This document shows positions 20 to 3,261 of a stretch of DNA of 64,000 nucleotides, one piece after another (within the stretch, counting starts at the first letter, position 1; the number at the start of each line of letters is the position of its first letter). This stretch comes from Escherichia coli (GTDB taxonomy: Bacteria; Pseudomonadota; Gammaproteobacteria; Enterobacterales; Enterobacteriaceae), in the NCBI RefSeq assembly GCF_044324785.1, contig NZ_CP172127.1; one strand, 5' to 3'. The notes beneath the pieces were generated by a model that worked only from the letters and a program-made list of their open reading frames with translations, did no database searches and had not been told where the DNA came from. A program made the translations under genes and the position numbers.

Positions 20-904
20 ATGTCATTCAGCCATTCTTCCCTCTCTGCACAAGTGAAATCATATCTGACGTTTCTTCCTGAAGAAATTCGCCAGAAAATC
101 CTTGAACATCTCCACGGTGTTATTCATTACGAGCCCGTGATTGGCATTATGGGTAAATCCGGCACAGGCAAAAGCAGCCTGTGTAATGCCATTTTTCAGT
201 CCCATATCTGCGCCACGCATCCCCTGAACGGCTGCACCCGCCAGGCTCATCACCTCACCCTGCAGATCGGTGAACGCAGAATGACGCTGGTCGATCTGCC
301 CGGCATTGGTGAGACACCGCAGCATGATCAGGAATACCGGGCACTTTATCATCAGTTGCTACCGGAACTGGATCTGATTATCTGGATCCTGCGGGCTGAT
401 GAACGTGCGTATGCTGCCGATATTGCCATGCATCAGTTTTTACTGAATGAAGATGCCGATCCCTCGCGTTTTCTGTTTGTTCTCAGCCATGCCGATCGCG
501 TGTTTCCTGCTGAAGAATGGAACGACACAGAAAAATGCCCGTCCCGTCAGCAGGAACTCTCACTGGCGACAGTAACAGCCCGGGTGGCCACCCTGTTCCC
601 GTCATCATTTCCGGTACTCTCCGTTGCAGCGCCTGTCGGCTGGAATCTTCAGGCACTGGTGTCACTGATGATCCACGCACTGCCACCACAGGCAACCAGC
701 GCGGTTTATTCGCATATCCGGAATGAAAAGCGCACTGCGCAGGATCAGCAACACGCACAGCAGGCTTTTGGTGACGCCATCGGCCAGAGTTTTGACGCTG
801 CCATTGCCCGGTTCAGCTTTCCGGCCTGGATGCTGCAGCTTCTGCGCAAAGCCCGTGATCGCATTATCCGCCTGCTGATCACACTGTGGGATCGCCTGTT
901 CTGA
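20..904 (+). CDS. YeeP/YfjP/YkfA-family GTPase (island-encoded)
   Basis: 294 aa; P-loop GIMGKSGTGKSS and DLPG G3 motif; N-terminal region resembles K-12 prophage GTPases. Confidence 0.8.
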   Translation: MSFSHSSLSAQVKSYLTFLPEEIRQKILEHLHGVIHYEPVIGIMGKSGTGKSSLCNAIFQSHICATHPLNGCTRQAHHLTLQIGERRMTLVDLPGIGETPQHDQEYRALYHQLLPELDLIIWILRADERAYAADIAMHQFLLNEDADPSRFLFVLSHADRVFPAEEWNDTEKCPSRQQELSLATVTARVATLFPSSFPVLSVAAPVGWNLQALVSLMIHALPPQATSAVYSHIRNEKRTAQDQQHAQQAFGDAIGQSFDAAIARFSFPAWMLQLLRKARDRIIRLLITLWDRLF

Positions 905-1013
905 ATGTCCCCGCTTTTTGACCGGCCCCGGCGATAACCAGGAAACGCATTTCCGGTTGCGTCACCACAATGCTGAAGGGCTTCGGTAAACCCTCATTCA
1001 TTTCATCCATCAG

Positions 1014-1045
1014 GCCGCGTCTTCTCCGTGAGACGCGGCTTTTTC
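1014..1045 (+). terminator. Putative rho-independent terminator after the GTPase gene
   Basis: Inverted repeat gccgcgtct...agacgcggc followed by tttttc. Confidence 0.4.
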
Positions 1046-1089
1046 ATTGATTACGTCATTCAGTCTTAACCACTGATAAGGAGCAAAGT

Positions 1090-1908
1090 ATGCGATTAGC
1101 CAGTCGTTTTGGTTATGCGAACCAGATACGCCGTGACCGTCCGCTGACCCGTGAAGAGCTGATGCACCATGTGCCCGGGATTTTCGGGGAAGATAAACAC
1201 ACCTCCCGGAGCCGGAACTATACATACATCCCCACCATCACCGTGCTGGAAAGCCTGCAGCGGGAAGGCTTTCAGCCATTCTTCGCCTGCCAGACCCGCG
1301 TACGTGACCCGGGCCGCCGGGGGTATACCAAACACATGCTGCGTCTGCGCCGTGACGGGGAGATAAACGGACAACATGTCCCTGAAATCATCCTGCTGAA
1401 CTCCCATGACGGTACCTCCAGCTACCAGATGCTGCCGGGTTACTTCAGGTTCGTCTGCCAGAACGGATGCGTCTGCGGTCAGTCTCTGGGGGAAGTGCGT
1501 GTTCCGCACCGGGGAAATGTGGTGGACAGAGTCATTGAAGGGGCTTACGAGGTGGTGGGCGTGTTTGACCGGATAGAGGAGAAGCGTGATGCCATGCAGT
1601 CGCTGGTCCTGCCGCCACCGGCACGCCAGGCGCTGGCACAGGCGGCACTGACTTACCGTTATGGTGACGAACATCAGCCCGTCACCACCGCCGACATTCT
1701 GACACCACGACGCCGGGAGGATTACGGTAAGGACCTGTGGAGTGCTTATCAGACCATCCAGGAGAATATGCTGAAAGGCGGGATTTCCGGTCGCAGTGCA
1801 AAAGGAAAACGTATCCATACCCGGGCCATTCACAGCATTGATACCGATATAAAACTCAACCGCGCATTGTGGGTGATGGCAGAAACGCTGCTGGAGAGCA
1901 TGCGCTGA
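1090..1908 (+). CDS. DUF932-family protein (YfjQ/YafZ-like)
   Basis: 272 aa, size and sequence resemble K-12 CP4-57 YfjQ; position directly after the GTPase as in CP4-57. Confidence 0.7.
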   Translation: MRLASRFGYANQIRRDRPLTREELMHHVPGIFGEDKHTSRSRNYTYIPTITVLESLQREGFQPFFACQTRVRDPGRRGYTKHMLRLRRDGEINGQHVPEIILLNSHDGTSSYQMLPGYFRFVCQNGCVCGQSLGEVRVPHRGNVVDRVIEGAYEVVGVFDRIEEKRDAMQSLVLPPPARQALAQAALTYRYGDEHQPVTTADILTPRRREDYGKDLWSAYQTIQENMLKGGISGRSAKGKRIHTRAIHSIDTDIKLNRALWVMAETLLESMR

Positions 1909-1999
1909 TGCTGTTTCCCTGAAAGTGCAGCCCTGACTCACGTCTGTACCAGTCCCCAGGCATTCTTCCATTCATTTACTTTTTATAAGGAATCATCTC

Positions 2000-2485
2000 A
2001 TGACAACCTTTTCGCATAGCTCCACCACACCTTCTGTTTCCGTAACTACTGCATCAGGGAATAACCAGTCTCAACTGGTTGCCACTCCCGTCCCTGATGA
2101 ACAGCGCATCAGCTTCTGGCCGCAGCATTTTGGCCTCATTCCACAGTGGGTGACCCTGGAGCCCCGTGTCTTCGGCTGGATGGACCGTCTGTGCGAAGAC
2201 TACTGCGGTGGTATCTGGAATCTGTACACCCTGAACAACGGCGGGGCATTTATGGCCCCCGAACCGGATGATGATGATGACGAAACATGGGTACTGTTCA
2301 ATGCCATGAACGGTAACCGCGCTGAAATGAGCCCGGAAGCCGCCGGCATTGCTGCCTGTCTGATGACGTACAGTCATCACGCCTGCCGTACGGAGTGTTA
2401 TGCCATGACGGTTCATTATTACCGTCTGCGGGATTACGCCCTGCAGCATCCGGAATGCAGCGCCATTATGCGCATCATTGACTGA
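2000..2485 (+). CDS. Antirestriction protein, ArdB/KlcA-like (YfjX/YafX family)
   Basis: 161 aa with acidic DDDDDE stretch; conserved position upstream of the radC-like gene. Confidence 0.65.
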   Translation: MTTFSHSSTTPSVSVTTASGNNQSQLVATPVPDEQRISFWPQHFGLIPQWVTLEPRVFGWMDRLCEDYCGGIWNLYTLNNGGAFMAPEPDDDDDETWVLFNAMNGNRAEMSPEAAGIAACLMTYSHHACRTECYAMTVHYYRLRDYALQHPECSAIMRIID

Positions 2486-2500
2486 AAGGGGGCCGGAACA

Positions 2501-2977
2501 ATGCAACAGATTTCCTTTCTGCCCGGAGAAATGACAACCAGAGAGCGCAGCCTCATTCAGCGGGCCCTGAAAGCCCTGGACCGCCATCTTCATGAACCCG
2601 GCGTGGCCTTCACCTCCACCCGTGCGGCACGGGAATGGCTGATTCTGAACATGGCGGGACTGGAGCGTGAAGAATTCCGGGTGCTGTATCTGAACAACCA
2701 GAATCAGCTGATTGCCGGTGAAACCCTCTTCACCGGCACCATCAACCGCACGGAAGTCCATCCCCGGGAAGTGATTAAACGCGCCCTGTACCACAATGCC
2801 GCTGCCGTGGTGCTGGCACACAATCACCCGTCCGGTGAAGTCACACCCAGTAAGGCAGACCGCCTTATTACGGAACGTCTGGTACAGGCACTGGCCCTGG
2901 TGGATATCCGGGTGCCGGACCATCTGATAGTCGGTGGCAGCCAGGTTTTCTCCTTTGCCGAACATGGTCTGCTTTAA
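2501..2977 (+). CDS. RadC-like JAMM/JAB domain protein (YeeS/YfjY/YkfG family)
   Basis: 158 aa; JAMM motif H-x-H-x7-S-x2-D present as HNHPSGEVTPSKAD. Confidence 0.85.
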   Translation: MQQISFLPGEMTTRERSLIQRALKALDRHLHEPGVAFTSTRAAREWLILNMAGLEREEFRVLYLNNQNQLIAGETLFTGTINRTEVHPREVIKRALYHNAAAVVLAHNHPSGEVTPSKADRLITERLVQALALVDIRVPDHLIVGGSQVFSFAEHGLL

Positions 2978-3039
2978 CCCGTCACAACCACATCACACCT
3001 GTTTTCACTTTTATCTTCTGTCTTCAGAGGTATCCCATT

Positions 3040-3261
3040 ATGAAAATCATCACCCGTGGTGAAGCCATGCGTATTCACCAACAGCATCCTGCATCCCGTC
3101 TTTTTCCGTTCTGTACCGGCAAATACCGCTGGCACGGTGGCACTGAAGCGTATACCGGTCGTGAAGTGCAGGATATTCCCGGTGTGCTGGCCGTGTTTGC
3201 AGAACGCCGTAAGGACAGTTTTGGTCCGTATGTCCGGCTGATGAGCGTCACCCTGAACTGA
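3040..3261 (+). CDS. DUF987-family protein (YeeT/YkfH-like)
   Basis: 73 aa, same length and position as YeeT in the yeeS-yeeT-yeeU-yeeV module. Confidence 0.7.
   Translation: MKIITRGEAMRIHQQHPASRLFPFCTGKYRWHGGTEAYTGREVQDIPGVLAVFAERRKDSFGPYVRLMSVTLN

What the first reader, a model, noticed from the sequence alone, without database searches (positions are those of the whole stretch)
20..3261. Compact variant of the CP4-type accessory module lacking flu/ag43 and yeeR
GTPase, DUF932, ArdB-like, RadC-like and DUF987 genes follow each other directly on one strand with short gaps, mixing features of CP4-57 (GTPase followed by DUF932) and CP4-44 (radC-DUF987-cbeA-cbtA-yeeW). There is no autotransporter adhesin between the GTPase and the rest. 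The recurring co-occurrence of antirestriction, JAMM and toxin-antitoxin genes suggests a unit acting during element transfer or in defence, but the functions of the GTPase and DUF932 proteins remain poorly defined.
Basis: partly seen in the sequence, partly recalled or inferred. Interest (0 to 1): 0.3.

Follow-up and report, generated by a model that had tools for sequence, protein, structure and literature searches.

The report
Known island backbone module, compact form
This is the well-known conserved gene block (GTPase, DUF932, ArdB anti-restriction, RadC-like protease, DUF987, then toxin-antitoxin genes) found at the far end of many E. coli genomic islands, here in a rarer short version with no cargo genes inserted; it is ordinary.

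Summary
Five intact + strand genes lie at 20-3261: GTPase, DUF932, ArdB, RadC-JAB and DUF987, separated by gaps of 185, 91, 15 and 62 bp. No adhesin gene lies between them.

The block continues past the finding with orf214, CbeA, CbtA, a DUF5983/DUF957 fusion, DUF4942 and ParDE. It ends at a 23-nt pheU 3' repeat (7092-7114) just before cadC. It is therefore the tRNA-distal backbone of a pheU-inserted island.

The same gene order occurs in K-12 CP4-57 and CP4-6, in full-length CP4-44-type islands, and in Salmonella and Yersinia. Cargo sits in two slots, GTPase|DUF932 and DUF932|ArdB, and both slots are empty here.

An identical compact copy (99.9% over 3242 bp) is already annotated in E. coli GPEC1040 at a different locus. 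About 30-50 of 5426 complete E. coli genomes carry the compact form.

The ArdB core differs at two residues from the crystallised, functionally tested CFT073 ArdB. dN/dS of 0.05-0.25 shows the five genes are maintained by selection.

A single operon is doubtful. A strong terminator-like hairpin (1012-1041) precedes DUF932, as it does in every lineage examined.

Verdict: real, correctly read, already known, low interest.

The parts
20..904 (+). TRAFAC-class GTPase of the island-borne YeeP/YfjP/YkfA kind, second subfamily. Motifs: G1 GKSGTGKS (aa 45), G3 DLPG (aa 92), G4-like SHAD (aa 156). Helical N- and C-terminal extensions flank the G domain.
   Evidence: Pfam MMR_HSR1, Dynamin_N, AIG1 and IIGP. 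34-35% aa identity to YfjP/YkfA and 51% to a Salmonella copy. AF2 model pLDDT 82.5. Foldseek best full-length matches are IRGa6/IIGP1 (TMq 0.52-0.55), followed by Toc34, GIMAP and Era. The C-terminus hits PADLOC LeoBC at 4e-7. Motifs located.
1012..1041 (+). Intrinsic-terminator-like hairpin (12-bp stem, 7 G-C pairs, followed by TTTTT), 48 nt upstream of the DUF932 start codon.
   Evidence: Pattern scan. Folding gives -21.5 kcal/mol, z -4.5, with 0 of 200 shuffles folding as well. The same hairpin sits upstream of DUF932 when the preceding gene is DUF905 instead of the GTPase. Hairpins with different sequence but the same position occur in the K-12 yfjP-yfjQ and ykfA-yafZ gaps and in Salmonella and Yersinia.
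1090..1908 (+). DUF932 protein (YfjQ/YafZ homologue), function unknown.
2000..2485 (+). ArdB/KlcA-type anti-restriction protein.
   Evidence: Pfam Antirestrict 2e-37. Residues 24-161 differ at two positions from the crystallised CFT073 ArdB, PDB 2WJ9, E 3e-98. [quoted passage not shown]
2501..2977 (+). RadC-like JAB/JAMM metalloprotease (YeeS/YkfG/YfjY=LfgB homologue), with the HNHPSG...D motif at aa 107-120.
   Evidence: Pfam RadC 5e-45. NCBIfam TIGR00608 is above its cutoff. 97% identical to YeeS and 78% to YfjY. PDB 2QLC 5e-25. Motif located. LfgB protease activity is reported in PMC10846083.
3040..3261 (+). DUF987 protein (YeeT homologue).
   Evidence: Pfam DUF987 1e-38. 96% identical to YeeT. 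dN/dS 0.05-0.08.
3276..3920 (+). 214-aa protein with no Pfam family. PGAP names its homologues 'antitoxin of toxin-antitoxin stability system'. It lies outside the finding but belongs to the same gene string.
   Evidence: No Pfam or NCBIfam hit. phrog_5162 1e-35. Annotated homologue in H1. A 214-aa gene without a Pfam hit lies between the CbeA and CbtA genes in Salmonella; it was not compared with orf214.
3970..4338 (+). CbeA/YeeU type IV antitoxin.
   Evidence: Pfam CbeA_antitoxin 8e-55. 92% identical to CbeA.
4429..4839 (+). CbtA/YeeV toxin gene carrying a 1-bp deletion near its 3' end. The last 7 residues are replaced and the ORF is extended.
   Evidence: Pfam CbtA_toxin 2e-59. Alignment with H1.
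4802..5227 (+). Fusion of the DUF5983 N-terminal domain with DUF957, created by a deletion of about 300 bp.
   Evidence: Pfam DUF5983_N. Alignment with H1.
5324..6190 (+). [not shown]
   Evidence: Pfam DUF4942 5e-69. PMC6174562 and PMC6980539.
6262..6848 (+). ParD-ParE type II toxin-antitoxin pair (6262-6525 and 6522-6848), with a promoter-like site at 6200-6227.
   Evidence: Pfam ParD_antitoxin 4e-17 and ParE_toxin 8e-18. Promoter scan.
7092..7114 (+). Copy of the 3' end of tRNA-Phe (pheU), 21 of 23 bases matching. It is the distal attachment-site repeat and marks the island boundary. The native pheU terminator hairpin follows at 7124-7149 and cadC at 7731-9269.
   Evidence: Pattern search: 1 match against 0 expected. 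No intact tRNA in the window. Terminator scan. cadC context in H1.

Best explanation
The region is the conserved, tRNA-distal backbone of a CP4-44/CP4-57/CP4-6-type integrative genomic island. The island is inserted at tRNA-pheU, next to cadC.

The backbone is a fixed string of genes: GTPase, DUF932, ArdB, RadC-JAB, DUF987, (orf214), CbeA, CbtA, DUF5983/DUF957, DUF4942. Other islands carry cargo in two recombination-prone slots. Between the GTPase and DUF932 the cargo can be Ag43, a YeeR-like protein, IrmA or DUF905. Between DUF932 and ArdB it can be a YfjR-like regulator, lipoproteins or hypothetical proteins. In this copy both slots are empty.

Shown or nearly shown:
- ArdB blocks type I restriction of incoming DNA. 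This was demonstrated for a protein whose core differs at two residues.
- RadC-JAB is a zinc metalloprotease. This was demonstrated for the 78%-identical LfgB.
- CbeA/CbtA and ParDE are toxin-antitoxin pairs.

Inferred:
- The block serves establishment (anti-restriction) and maintenance (toxin-antitoxin addiction) of the island after horizontal transfer.
- It is transcribed as several units rather than one. The GTPase is followed by a terminator-like hairpin. DUF932 through the toxin-antitoxin genes is possibly one unit that ends at the weaker hairpin at 5271-5289. DUF4942 and ParDE have their own signals.

The biochemical roles of the IRG/GIMAP-like GTPase and of DUF932 remain unknown.
For: - Gene families and order.
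- Island boundary: pheU 3' repeat at 7092-7114, then the pheU terminator and cadC.
- Same order in K-12 CP4-44, CP4-57 and CP4-6, in the full CP4-44 form, and in Salmonella and Yersinia with cargo in the two slots.
- E. coli survey: 1810 genomes cover at least 80% of the block, with insertions of about 0.9 and 1.9 kb between DUF932 and ArdB in many. The fully compact form is present in about 30-50 genomes.
- The module is 99.9-100% identical in GPEC1040 at a different locus, next to frlR, and mosaic against H1. This fits a backbone that recombines between islands.
- ArdB is near-identical to 2WJ9, whose function is described in PMC2836571.
- LfgB protease and the lfgABCDE operon (PMC10846083).
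- Separate RpoD promoters for yfjPQ and yfjX in K-12 (PMC3946193).
- Hairpin evidence.
- Purifying selection.
- The module is described in pheU/pheV/selC islands of STEC and in the SRL PAI.
Against: - No integrase, intact pheU or transfer origin can be seen, because the window starts at the GTPase gene.
- Mobility of this island was not tested.
- cbtA has a 3' frameshift and DUF5983/DUF957 are fused by a deletion, so the downstream part shows some decay.
- No sigma-70-like promoter was detected on the + strand anywhere in 1-6199. The transcription-unit model therefore rests on hairpins and on K-12 analogy only.
- Wood-lab work assigns the K-12 homologous operon a host stress role rather than a transfer role.
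Confidence: 0.82

Rival explanations
1. The whole string from the GTPase to the toxin-antitoxin genes is one operon that acts as a single functional machine.
For: All genes are on one strand with short gaps. No sigma-70-like promoter was found within 1-6199 on the + strand. The 91-bp DUF932-ArdB gap has no room for a conventional promoter with a leader.
Against: A strong terminator-like hairpin at 1012-1041 is conserved in position in five lineages. In other islands kilobases of unrelated cargo, some of it on the opposite strand (yfjU and yfjV in CP4-57), separate the same genes. K-12 gSELEX lists separate promoters for yfjPQ and for yfjXY-ypjJ-yfjZ-ypjF.
Confidence: 0.15
2. The block is domesticated host physiology rather than an element-transfer function. 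As in K-12 CP4-57, the ArdB-RadC-DUF987-TA operon would be a stress-response unit whose JAB protease degrades the antitoxin MqsA and derepresses rpoS.
For: PMC10846083 reports that deletion of lfgB (yfjY) sensitises cells to H2O2, acid and heat, that purified LfgB degrades MqsA, and that MqsA binds the operon promoter. The RadC here is 78% identical to YfjY. Purifying selection acts on all genes.
Against: The MqsA site in K-12 lies 252 bp upstream of lfgA, in sequence absent here, where the gap is only 91 bp. The module is multi-copy (median 3-4 places per genome), sits at many loci and is exchanged between islands. This fits an element backbone better than a host regulon. The two roles are not mutually exclusive.
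Confidence: 0.25
3. The block is an anti-phage defence unit. An IRG/GIMAP-like GTPase acts as sensor or effector, and the toxin-antitoxin pairs act by abortive infection.
For: The GTPase model resembles immunity-related GTPases (IRGa6/IIGP1, GIMAP) over its full length. Its C-terminus weakly hits the Eleos LeoBC profile at 4e-7. The neighbouring CP4-57 genes abpA/abpB and rnlAB are known defence genes.
Against: No PADLOC model matches any other protein of the block. The LeoBC hit covers only 100 residues of a 601-position profile. ArdB is an anti-defence protein, not a defence protein. No experimental data exist.
Confidence: 0.12
4. The block is a decaying remnant of an old element with no current function.
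For: cbtA is frameshifted and DUF5983/DUF957 are fused by a deletion. Homologous copies in other strains carry frameshifts in orf214, cbtA and DUF4942.
Against: All five genes of the finding are full length against their profiles. Their dN/dS is 0.05-0.25 against copies with dS of 0.03-0.24.
Confidence: 0.04

Closest known systems
Compact copies already in RefSeq: E. coli GPEC1040 (NZ_CM142794.1, 474105-477346) and AHS8C65RI (NZ_CP125885.1, next to cadC)
   Same: Identical gene order with both cargo slots empty. GPEC1040 is 99.9% identical over 3242 bp and about 100% identical up to roughly window 4750. AHS8C65RI has the same arrangement at the same pheU/cadC site, at 93.5% identity.
   Different: GPEC1040 carries the block at another locus, next to frlR. 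AHS8C65RI is mosaic, with 85-100% identity by segment, and keeps intact cbtA, DUF5983 and DUF957.
K-12 cryptic prophage CP4-57, yfjP-yfjQ ... yfjX(lfgA)-yfjY(lfgB)-ypjJ-yfjZ-ypjF
   Same: The GTPase is directly followed by a hairpin and then DUF932. The ArdB-RadC-DUF987-antitoxin-toxin string is the same.
   Different: About 6.4 kb of cargo (yfjR to ypjI) lies between DUF932 and ArdB. Protein identities are 35% (GTPase), 75% (DUF932), 69% (ArdB) and 78% (RadC). CP4-57 is inserted at ssrA, not pheU.
K-12 cryptic prophage CP4-6, ykfA-yafZ ... yafX-ykfG-ykfH-yafW-ykfI
   Same: Same order, with the block at the end of the island next to the tRNA repeat.
   Different: About 1.9 kb of small genes (ykfK/L, yafY, ykfB, ykfF) lies between DUF932 and ArdB. 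Identities are 34-82%.
CP4-44-type islands: full form in E. coli 14EC047, deleted form in K-12
   Same: DUF932-ArdB-RadC-DUF987 is contiguous and 92-94% identical at the DNA level, starting at the same hairpin. RadC, DUF987, CbeA and CbtA are 86-97% identical to YeeS, YeeT, CbeA and CbtA.
   Different: The full form has agn43, a YeeR-like gene, IrmA and DUF905 between a different-subfamily GTPase and DUF932. K-12 lacks DUF932 and ArdB through a deletion that joins yeeR to yeeS. CP4-44 lacks orf214.
Backbone of Shigella SRL PAI (orf46-57), LEE-flanking 933L genes L0007-L0011, PAI II CFT073 (ORF14 = ArdB), and STEC islands at pheU/pheV/selC
   Same: Same families in the same order at island ends (PMC6980539; PMC6174562; PMC2836571).
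   Different: These islands usually carry Ag43 after the GTPase.
Anti-defence clusters in plasmid leading regions (Samuel et al. 2024, PMC11541004)
   Same: They work alike: ArdB/KlcA-type anti-restriction genes are clustered with other small genes in one orientation on a mobile element.
   Different: No oriT, ssDNA promoter, ssb or psiB was identified here. The element is a chromosomal island. Membership is not claimed.

Membership tests
Distal backbone module of CP4-44/CP4-57/CP4-6-type E. coli islands | Co-oriented string GTPase - DUF932 - ArdB - RadC/JAB - DUF987 - CbeA-type antitoxin - CbtA-type toxin | tested here: met
   Comparison with K-12 loci.
Distal backbone module of CP4-44/CP4-57/CP4-6-type E. 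coli islands | Located at the end of an island, bounded by a repeat of a tRNA/tmRNA gene 3' end | tested here: met
   pheU 3' repeat at 7092-7114, 1 match against 0 expected. The pheU terminator and cadC follow.
Distal backbone module of CP4-44/CP4-57/CP4-6-type E. coli islands | P4-type tyrosine integrase (plus AlpA/YfjI/YfjJ-type genes) at the tRNA-proximal end | not testable with these tools
   The window begins 19 bp before the GTPase gene. Relatives H1 and H26 have YfjI, YfjJ/Gp2 and HTH regulator genes upstream.
ArdB/KlcA anti-restriction proteins | Antirestrict (PF03230) domain and ArdB fold | tested here: met
   Pfam 2e-37 over the full profile. Two substitutions against 2WJ9 over residues 24-161.
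ArdB/KlcA anti-restriction proteins | Alleviation of type I restriction in vivo | not testable with these tools
   Shown for the near-identical CFT073 protein (PMC2836571). Not assayed for this copy.
RadC-like JAB/JAMM metalloproteases | RadC JAB domain with the H-x-H-x(n)-D zinc motif and an upstream Glu | tested here: met
   Pfam RadC 5e-45. TIGR00608 scores 150 bits against a cutoff of 134. HNHPSGEVTPSKAD at aa 107-120 and E85.
TRAFAC GTPases (YeeP/YfjP/YkfA group) | G1 P-loop, G3 DxxG and G4-like motifs; homology to YfjP/YkfA | tested here: met
   Motifs located. BLASTP to YfjP gives 1e-61 at 35% identity. The motifs are invariant across six homologues.
Type IV toxin-antitoxin CbtA/CbeA | Adjacent CbeA_antitoxin and CbtA_toxin genes, both intact | tested here: inconclusive
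   Both domains are present and complete against their profiles. However, cbtA has a 1-bp deletion that rewrites its last 7 codons, with unknown effect on activity.
   Terminator-like hairpin at 1012-1041. This is a computational prediction only.
Plasmid leading-region anti-defence island | Position next to oriT on the first-transferred strand, with ssDNA (Frpo-type) promoters | not tested
   No oriT or relaxase lies in the visible part. Rfam scan of 1-8000 found nothing.
Known anti-phage defence systems (PADLOC) | Match of the component proteins to a defence-system model set | tested here: not met
   The only hit is partial: LeoBC for the GTPase C-terminus, 4e-7, 100 of 601 profile positions. 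There are no other hits.

The most novel reading that the evidence does not exclude
DUF932 is the most strongly constrained gene of the block (dN/dS 0.05). Its confidently predicted fold has no solved relative, and Cys, Asn and His residues are invariant across 101 diverse homologues. It might be an as-yet unrecognised enzyme central to mobile-element establishment. The terminator-like hairpin that always travels with it, with no promoter between hairpin and start codon, might be a conditional read-through or antitermination switch. Such a switch would gate expression of DUF932 and the downstream anti-restriction operon, possibly together with the IRG-like GTPase or the ProQ/FinO-type protein that related islands encode upstream.
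Probability: 0.08. Interest if true: 0.45.

Novelty: already known. Interest (0 to 1): 0.12.

Why it matters
It matters little as a discovery. The block is a textbook backbone of E. coli and Shigella genomic islands, and the identical compact arrangement is already deposited and annotated.

It is useful as a marker. It shows that the window opens inside a pheU-inserted island and locates the island's right-hand boundary at about 7114.

The comparison also gives a clean picture of the module as a fixed gene string with two cargo slots. It recalls that two very widespread mobile-element proteins, DUF932 and the IRG-like GTPase, still have no known function.

Tried and rejected
- Rfam scan of 1-8000 at E<=1 found nothing. 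There is no IsrC-like sRNA or other known RNA in the GTPase-DUF932 gap.
- tRNA scan of the whole window found no intact tRNA. Only the partial pheU repeat is present.
- The sigma-70 promoter scan found no + strand site before 6200. Manual reading of the 48 nt between hairpin and DUF932, and of the 91-bp DUF932-ArdB gap, found no convincing -35/-10 pair.
- The repeat search in 1-7800 gave only short, chance-level matches.
- PADLOC gave no defence-system assignment.
- NCBIfam gave only generic GTPase and RadC hits.
- BFVD returned only uncharacterised phage DUF932/TIGR03299 proteins.
- The afdb50 library was unavailable.
- The source genome could not be found. The best match for window 3300-9300 in complete E. 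coli genomes is 95%, so the exact island is not in that collection.
- Antisense long ORFs were rejected as genes.

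
Full report
OBSERVATION

Pfam assigns them as follows:
- 20-904 (294 aa): GTPase, MMR_HSR1 7e-15, Dynamin_N 1e-10, weaker AIG1 and IIGP hits.
- 1090-1908 (272 aa): DUF932, 6e-52, full profile.
- 2000-2485 (161 aa): Antirestrict, 2e-37.
- 2501-2977 (158 aa): RadC-like JAB, 5e-45.
- 3040-3261 (73 aa): DUF987, 1e-38.

The gaps are 185, 91, 15 and 62 bp, so no autotransporter or yeeR-sized gene lies between them. The long antisense ORFs have no family match. The + strand frames show dN/dS of 0.05-0.25 against two diverged E. 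coli copies.

EXTENT AND CONTEXT

The gene string does not stop at 3261. It continues on the same strand:
- a 214-aa protein without a Pfam family (3276-3920)
- CbeA antitoxin (3970-4338)
- CbtA toxin (4429-4839)
- a DUF5983-N/DUF957 fusion (4802-5227)
- DUF4942 (5324-6190)
- a ParD/ParE pair (6262-6848)

At 7092-7114 there is a 21/23 copy of the 3' end of tRNA-Phe, 1 match against 0 expected. The native pheU terminator hairpin follows at 7124-7149, then cadC at 7731 (annotated context). No intact tRNA lies in the window.

The block is therefore the tRNA-distal end of an island inserted at pheU. The rest of the island lies upstream of window position 1. The remainder of the window is ordinary E. 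coli core (cad, dcu, mel, adi, bas, phn), 97.5-98.4% identical to an E. coli chromosome.

- CP4-57: yfjP(GTPase)-yfjQ(DUF932), then 6.4 kb of cargo, then yfjX(lfgA, ArdB)-yfjY(lfgB, RadC)-ypjJ(DUF987)-yfjZ-ypjF.
- CP4-6: ykfA-yafZ, then 1.9 kb of small genes, then yafX-ykfG-ykfH-yafW-ykfI.
- CP4-44 in K-12: yeeP'-isrC-flu-yeeR-yeeS-yeeT-cbeA-cbtA-yeeW.

Protein identities show a mosaic:
- RadC, DUF987, CbeA and CbtA are 97, 96, 92 and 86% identical to the CP4-44 proteins.
- DUF932 and ArdB are 67-75% identical to the CP4-57 and CP4-6 proteins.
- The GTPase is only 34-35% identical to YfjP/YkfA. It belongs to a second subfamily, 51% identical to a Salmonella copy.

A non-K-12 strain shows the full CP4-44-type module: GTPase-agn43-YeeR-like-IrmA-DUF905-DUF932-ArdB-RadC-YeeT-CbeA-CbtA. 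K-12 CP4-44 is thus a deletion derivative that lost DUF932 and ArdB.

Salmonella and Yersinia loci keep the same order, with other cargo between the GTPase and DUF932 and between DUF932 and ArdB.

The simplest description is a fixed backbone with two cargo slots. In the window both slots are empty.

HOW COMMON IT IS

- 4878 of 5426 complete E. coli genomes match part of 20-3261, and 1810 match at least 80% of it.
- In an evenly spaced sample of hits, about half of the rows have DUF932-ArdB-RadC-DUF987 contiguous but a different upstream region. About a third have this GTPase plus DUF932 followed by a 0.9- or 1.9-kb insertion before ArdB.
- A chimeric query was built to join only when the GTPase 3' end and the ArdB 5' end lie within about 1 kb of each other. 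It found 50 genomes. About 29 of the 40 listed have the fully compact spacing, and they are mostly poultry isolates.
- E. coli GPEC1040 carries a copy 99.9% identical over 3242 bp, and about 100% identical up to roughly 4750. Its copy is next to frlR rather than cadC.
- Strain AHS8C65RI has the same arrangement at the cadC/pheU site, with 85-100% segmental identity.

The module is thus exchanged among islands by recombination, and the exact arrangement is already deposited and annotated. The literature describes the same backbone in pheU/pheV/selC islands of STEC (PMC6174562), in the Shigella SRL PAI as orf46-57 (PMC6980539) and in PAI II of CFT073 (PMC2836571).

WHAT THE PARTS DO

ArdB. Residues 24-161 differ at two positions from the crystallised CFT073 ArdB (PDB 2WJ9). 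[quoted passage not shown] This is the best-supported function.

RadC-JAB. It carries the HNHPSG...D zinc motif and is 78% identical to YfjY/LfgB. Purified LfgB showed protease activity on MqsA and casein. Its operon, yfjXY-ypjJ-yfjZ-ypjF, was treated as a unit with its own promoter (PMC10846083; PMC3946193).

Toxin-antitoxin genes. CbeA/CbtA and ParDE are toxin-antitoxin pairs. Island maintenance is the usual inference. cbtA here has a 1-bp deletion that rewrites its last codons.

GTPase. It has intact G1, G3 and G4-like motifs. A model built from six homologues (pLDDT 82.5) aligns over its full length best with the immunity-related GTPases IRGa6/IIGP1 (TMq 0.52-0.55), and also with Toc34, GIMAP and Era. 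Its C-terminal helices give a weak hit to the Eleos LeoBC profile. This is a resemblance, not a functional assignment.

TRANSCRIPTION

Three points argue against this:
- The strongest terminator-like hairpin of the region lies at 1012-1041, between the GTPase and DUF932. It has a 12-bp stem and a T run, folds at -21.5 kcal/mol, has z -4.5, and 0 of 200 shuffles fold as well.
- The same hairpin precedes DUF932 when the upstream gene is DUF905 instead of the GTPase. Hairpins of different sequence but the same position and form occur in the yfjP-yfjQ and ykfA-yafZ gaps of K-12 and in the Salmonella and Yersinia loci.
- K-12 data list separate RpoD promoters upstream of yfjP, ykfA and yfjX.

Two points leave the question open:
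- No promoter-like site was detected on the + strand of the window before 6200.
- The 91-bp DUF932-ArdB gap differs from the K-12 yfjX upstream region.

How DUF932 and ArdB are transcribed here is therefore unresolved. The multi-unit model is a computational prediction that needs end-mapping.

VERDICT

It is a known backbone module in a rare but already sequenced compact arrangement. It ranks as 'already known' and of low interest.

The only mildly open points are the unknown functions of DUF932 and the IRG-like GTPase, and the role of the hairpin that always accompanies DUF932.

Noticed in passing
window 1012-1041; also L003 15602-15629, L004 (ykfA-yafZ gap), L008 ~5935-5970, L011 ~5940-5963: A GC-rich hairpin plus U-run sits 35-50 nt upstream of every DUF932 start codon examined. 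The stem sequences differ between lineages. In E. coli the hairpin travels with DUF932 whatever gene precedes it (GTPase or DUF905). No promoter is visible between the hairpin and the start codon.
   Followed up: partly
window 4429-4839: cbtA has a 1-bp deletion near its 3' end. This replaces the last 7 residues and extends the ORF so that it overlaps the next gene by 38 nt. The same gene is annotated as frameshifted in GPEC1040.
   Followed up: yes
window 4802-5227: A deletion of about 300 bp fuses the DUF5983 N-terminal domain in frame to DUF957, giving a 141-aa chimeric ORF.
   Followed up: yes
window 3276-3920: This intact 214-aa gene has no Pfam or NCBIfam family (phrog_5162 only). PGAP labels its homologues 'antitoxin of toxin-antitoxin stability system'. 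CP4-44 lacks it. In Salmonella a 214-aa gene without a Pfam hit (not compared with this one) sits between the CbeA and CbtA genes.
   Followed up: partly
window ~24734-24758: melB is absent relative to E. coli AHS8C65RI. The sequence after yjdF runs almost directly into the 3' end of melA.
   Followed up: partly
window ~53756-53938: About 6.8 kb holding most of the allose genes (alsR-alsK, next to rpiB) is missing relative to AHS8C65RI and is replaced by about 180 bp.
   Followed up: no
window 6200-6848: A ParD/ParE type II toxin-antitoxin pair with its own promoter-like site (TTTACA-16-TATTAT at 6200-6227) is the last gene pair of the island before the pheU repeat. It is 99% identical to the copy in AHS8C65RI, although the neighbouring genes are only 83-93% identical.
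   Followed up: partly
window 1-9300 versus complete E. coli genomes: No complete RefSeq E. coli genome holds this exact island end next to cadC; the best match is 95% over 3300-9300. The 5' part (1 to about 4750) is about 100% identical to a copy at a different locus in strain GPEC1040. This points to recent recombinational exchange of the module between islands.
   Followed up: partly
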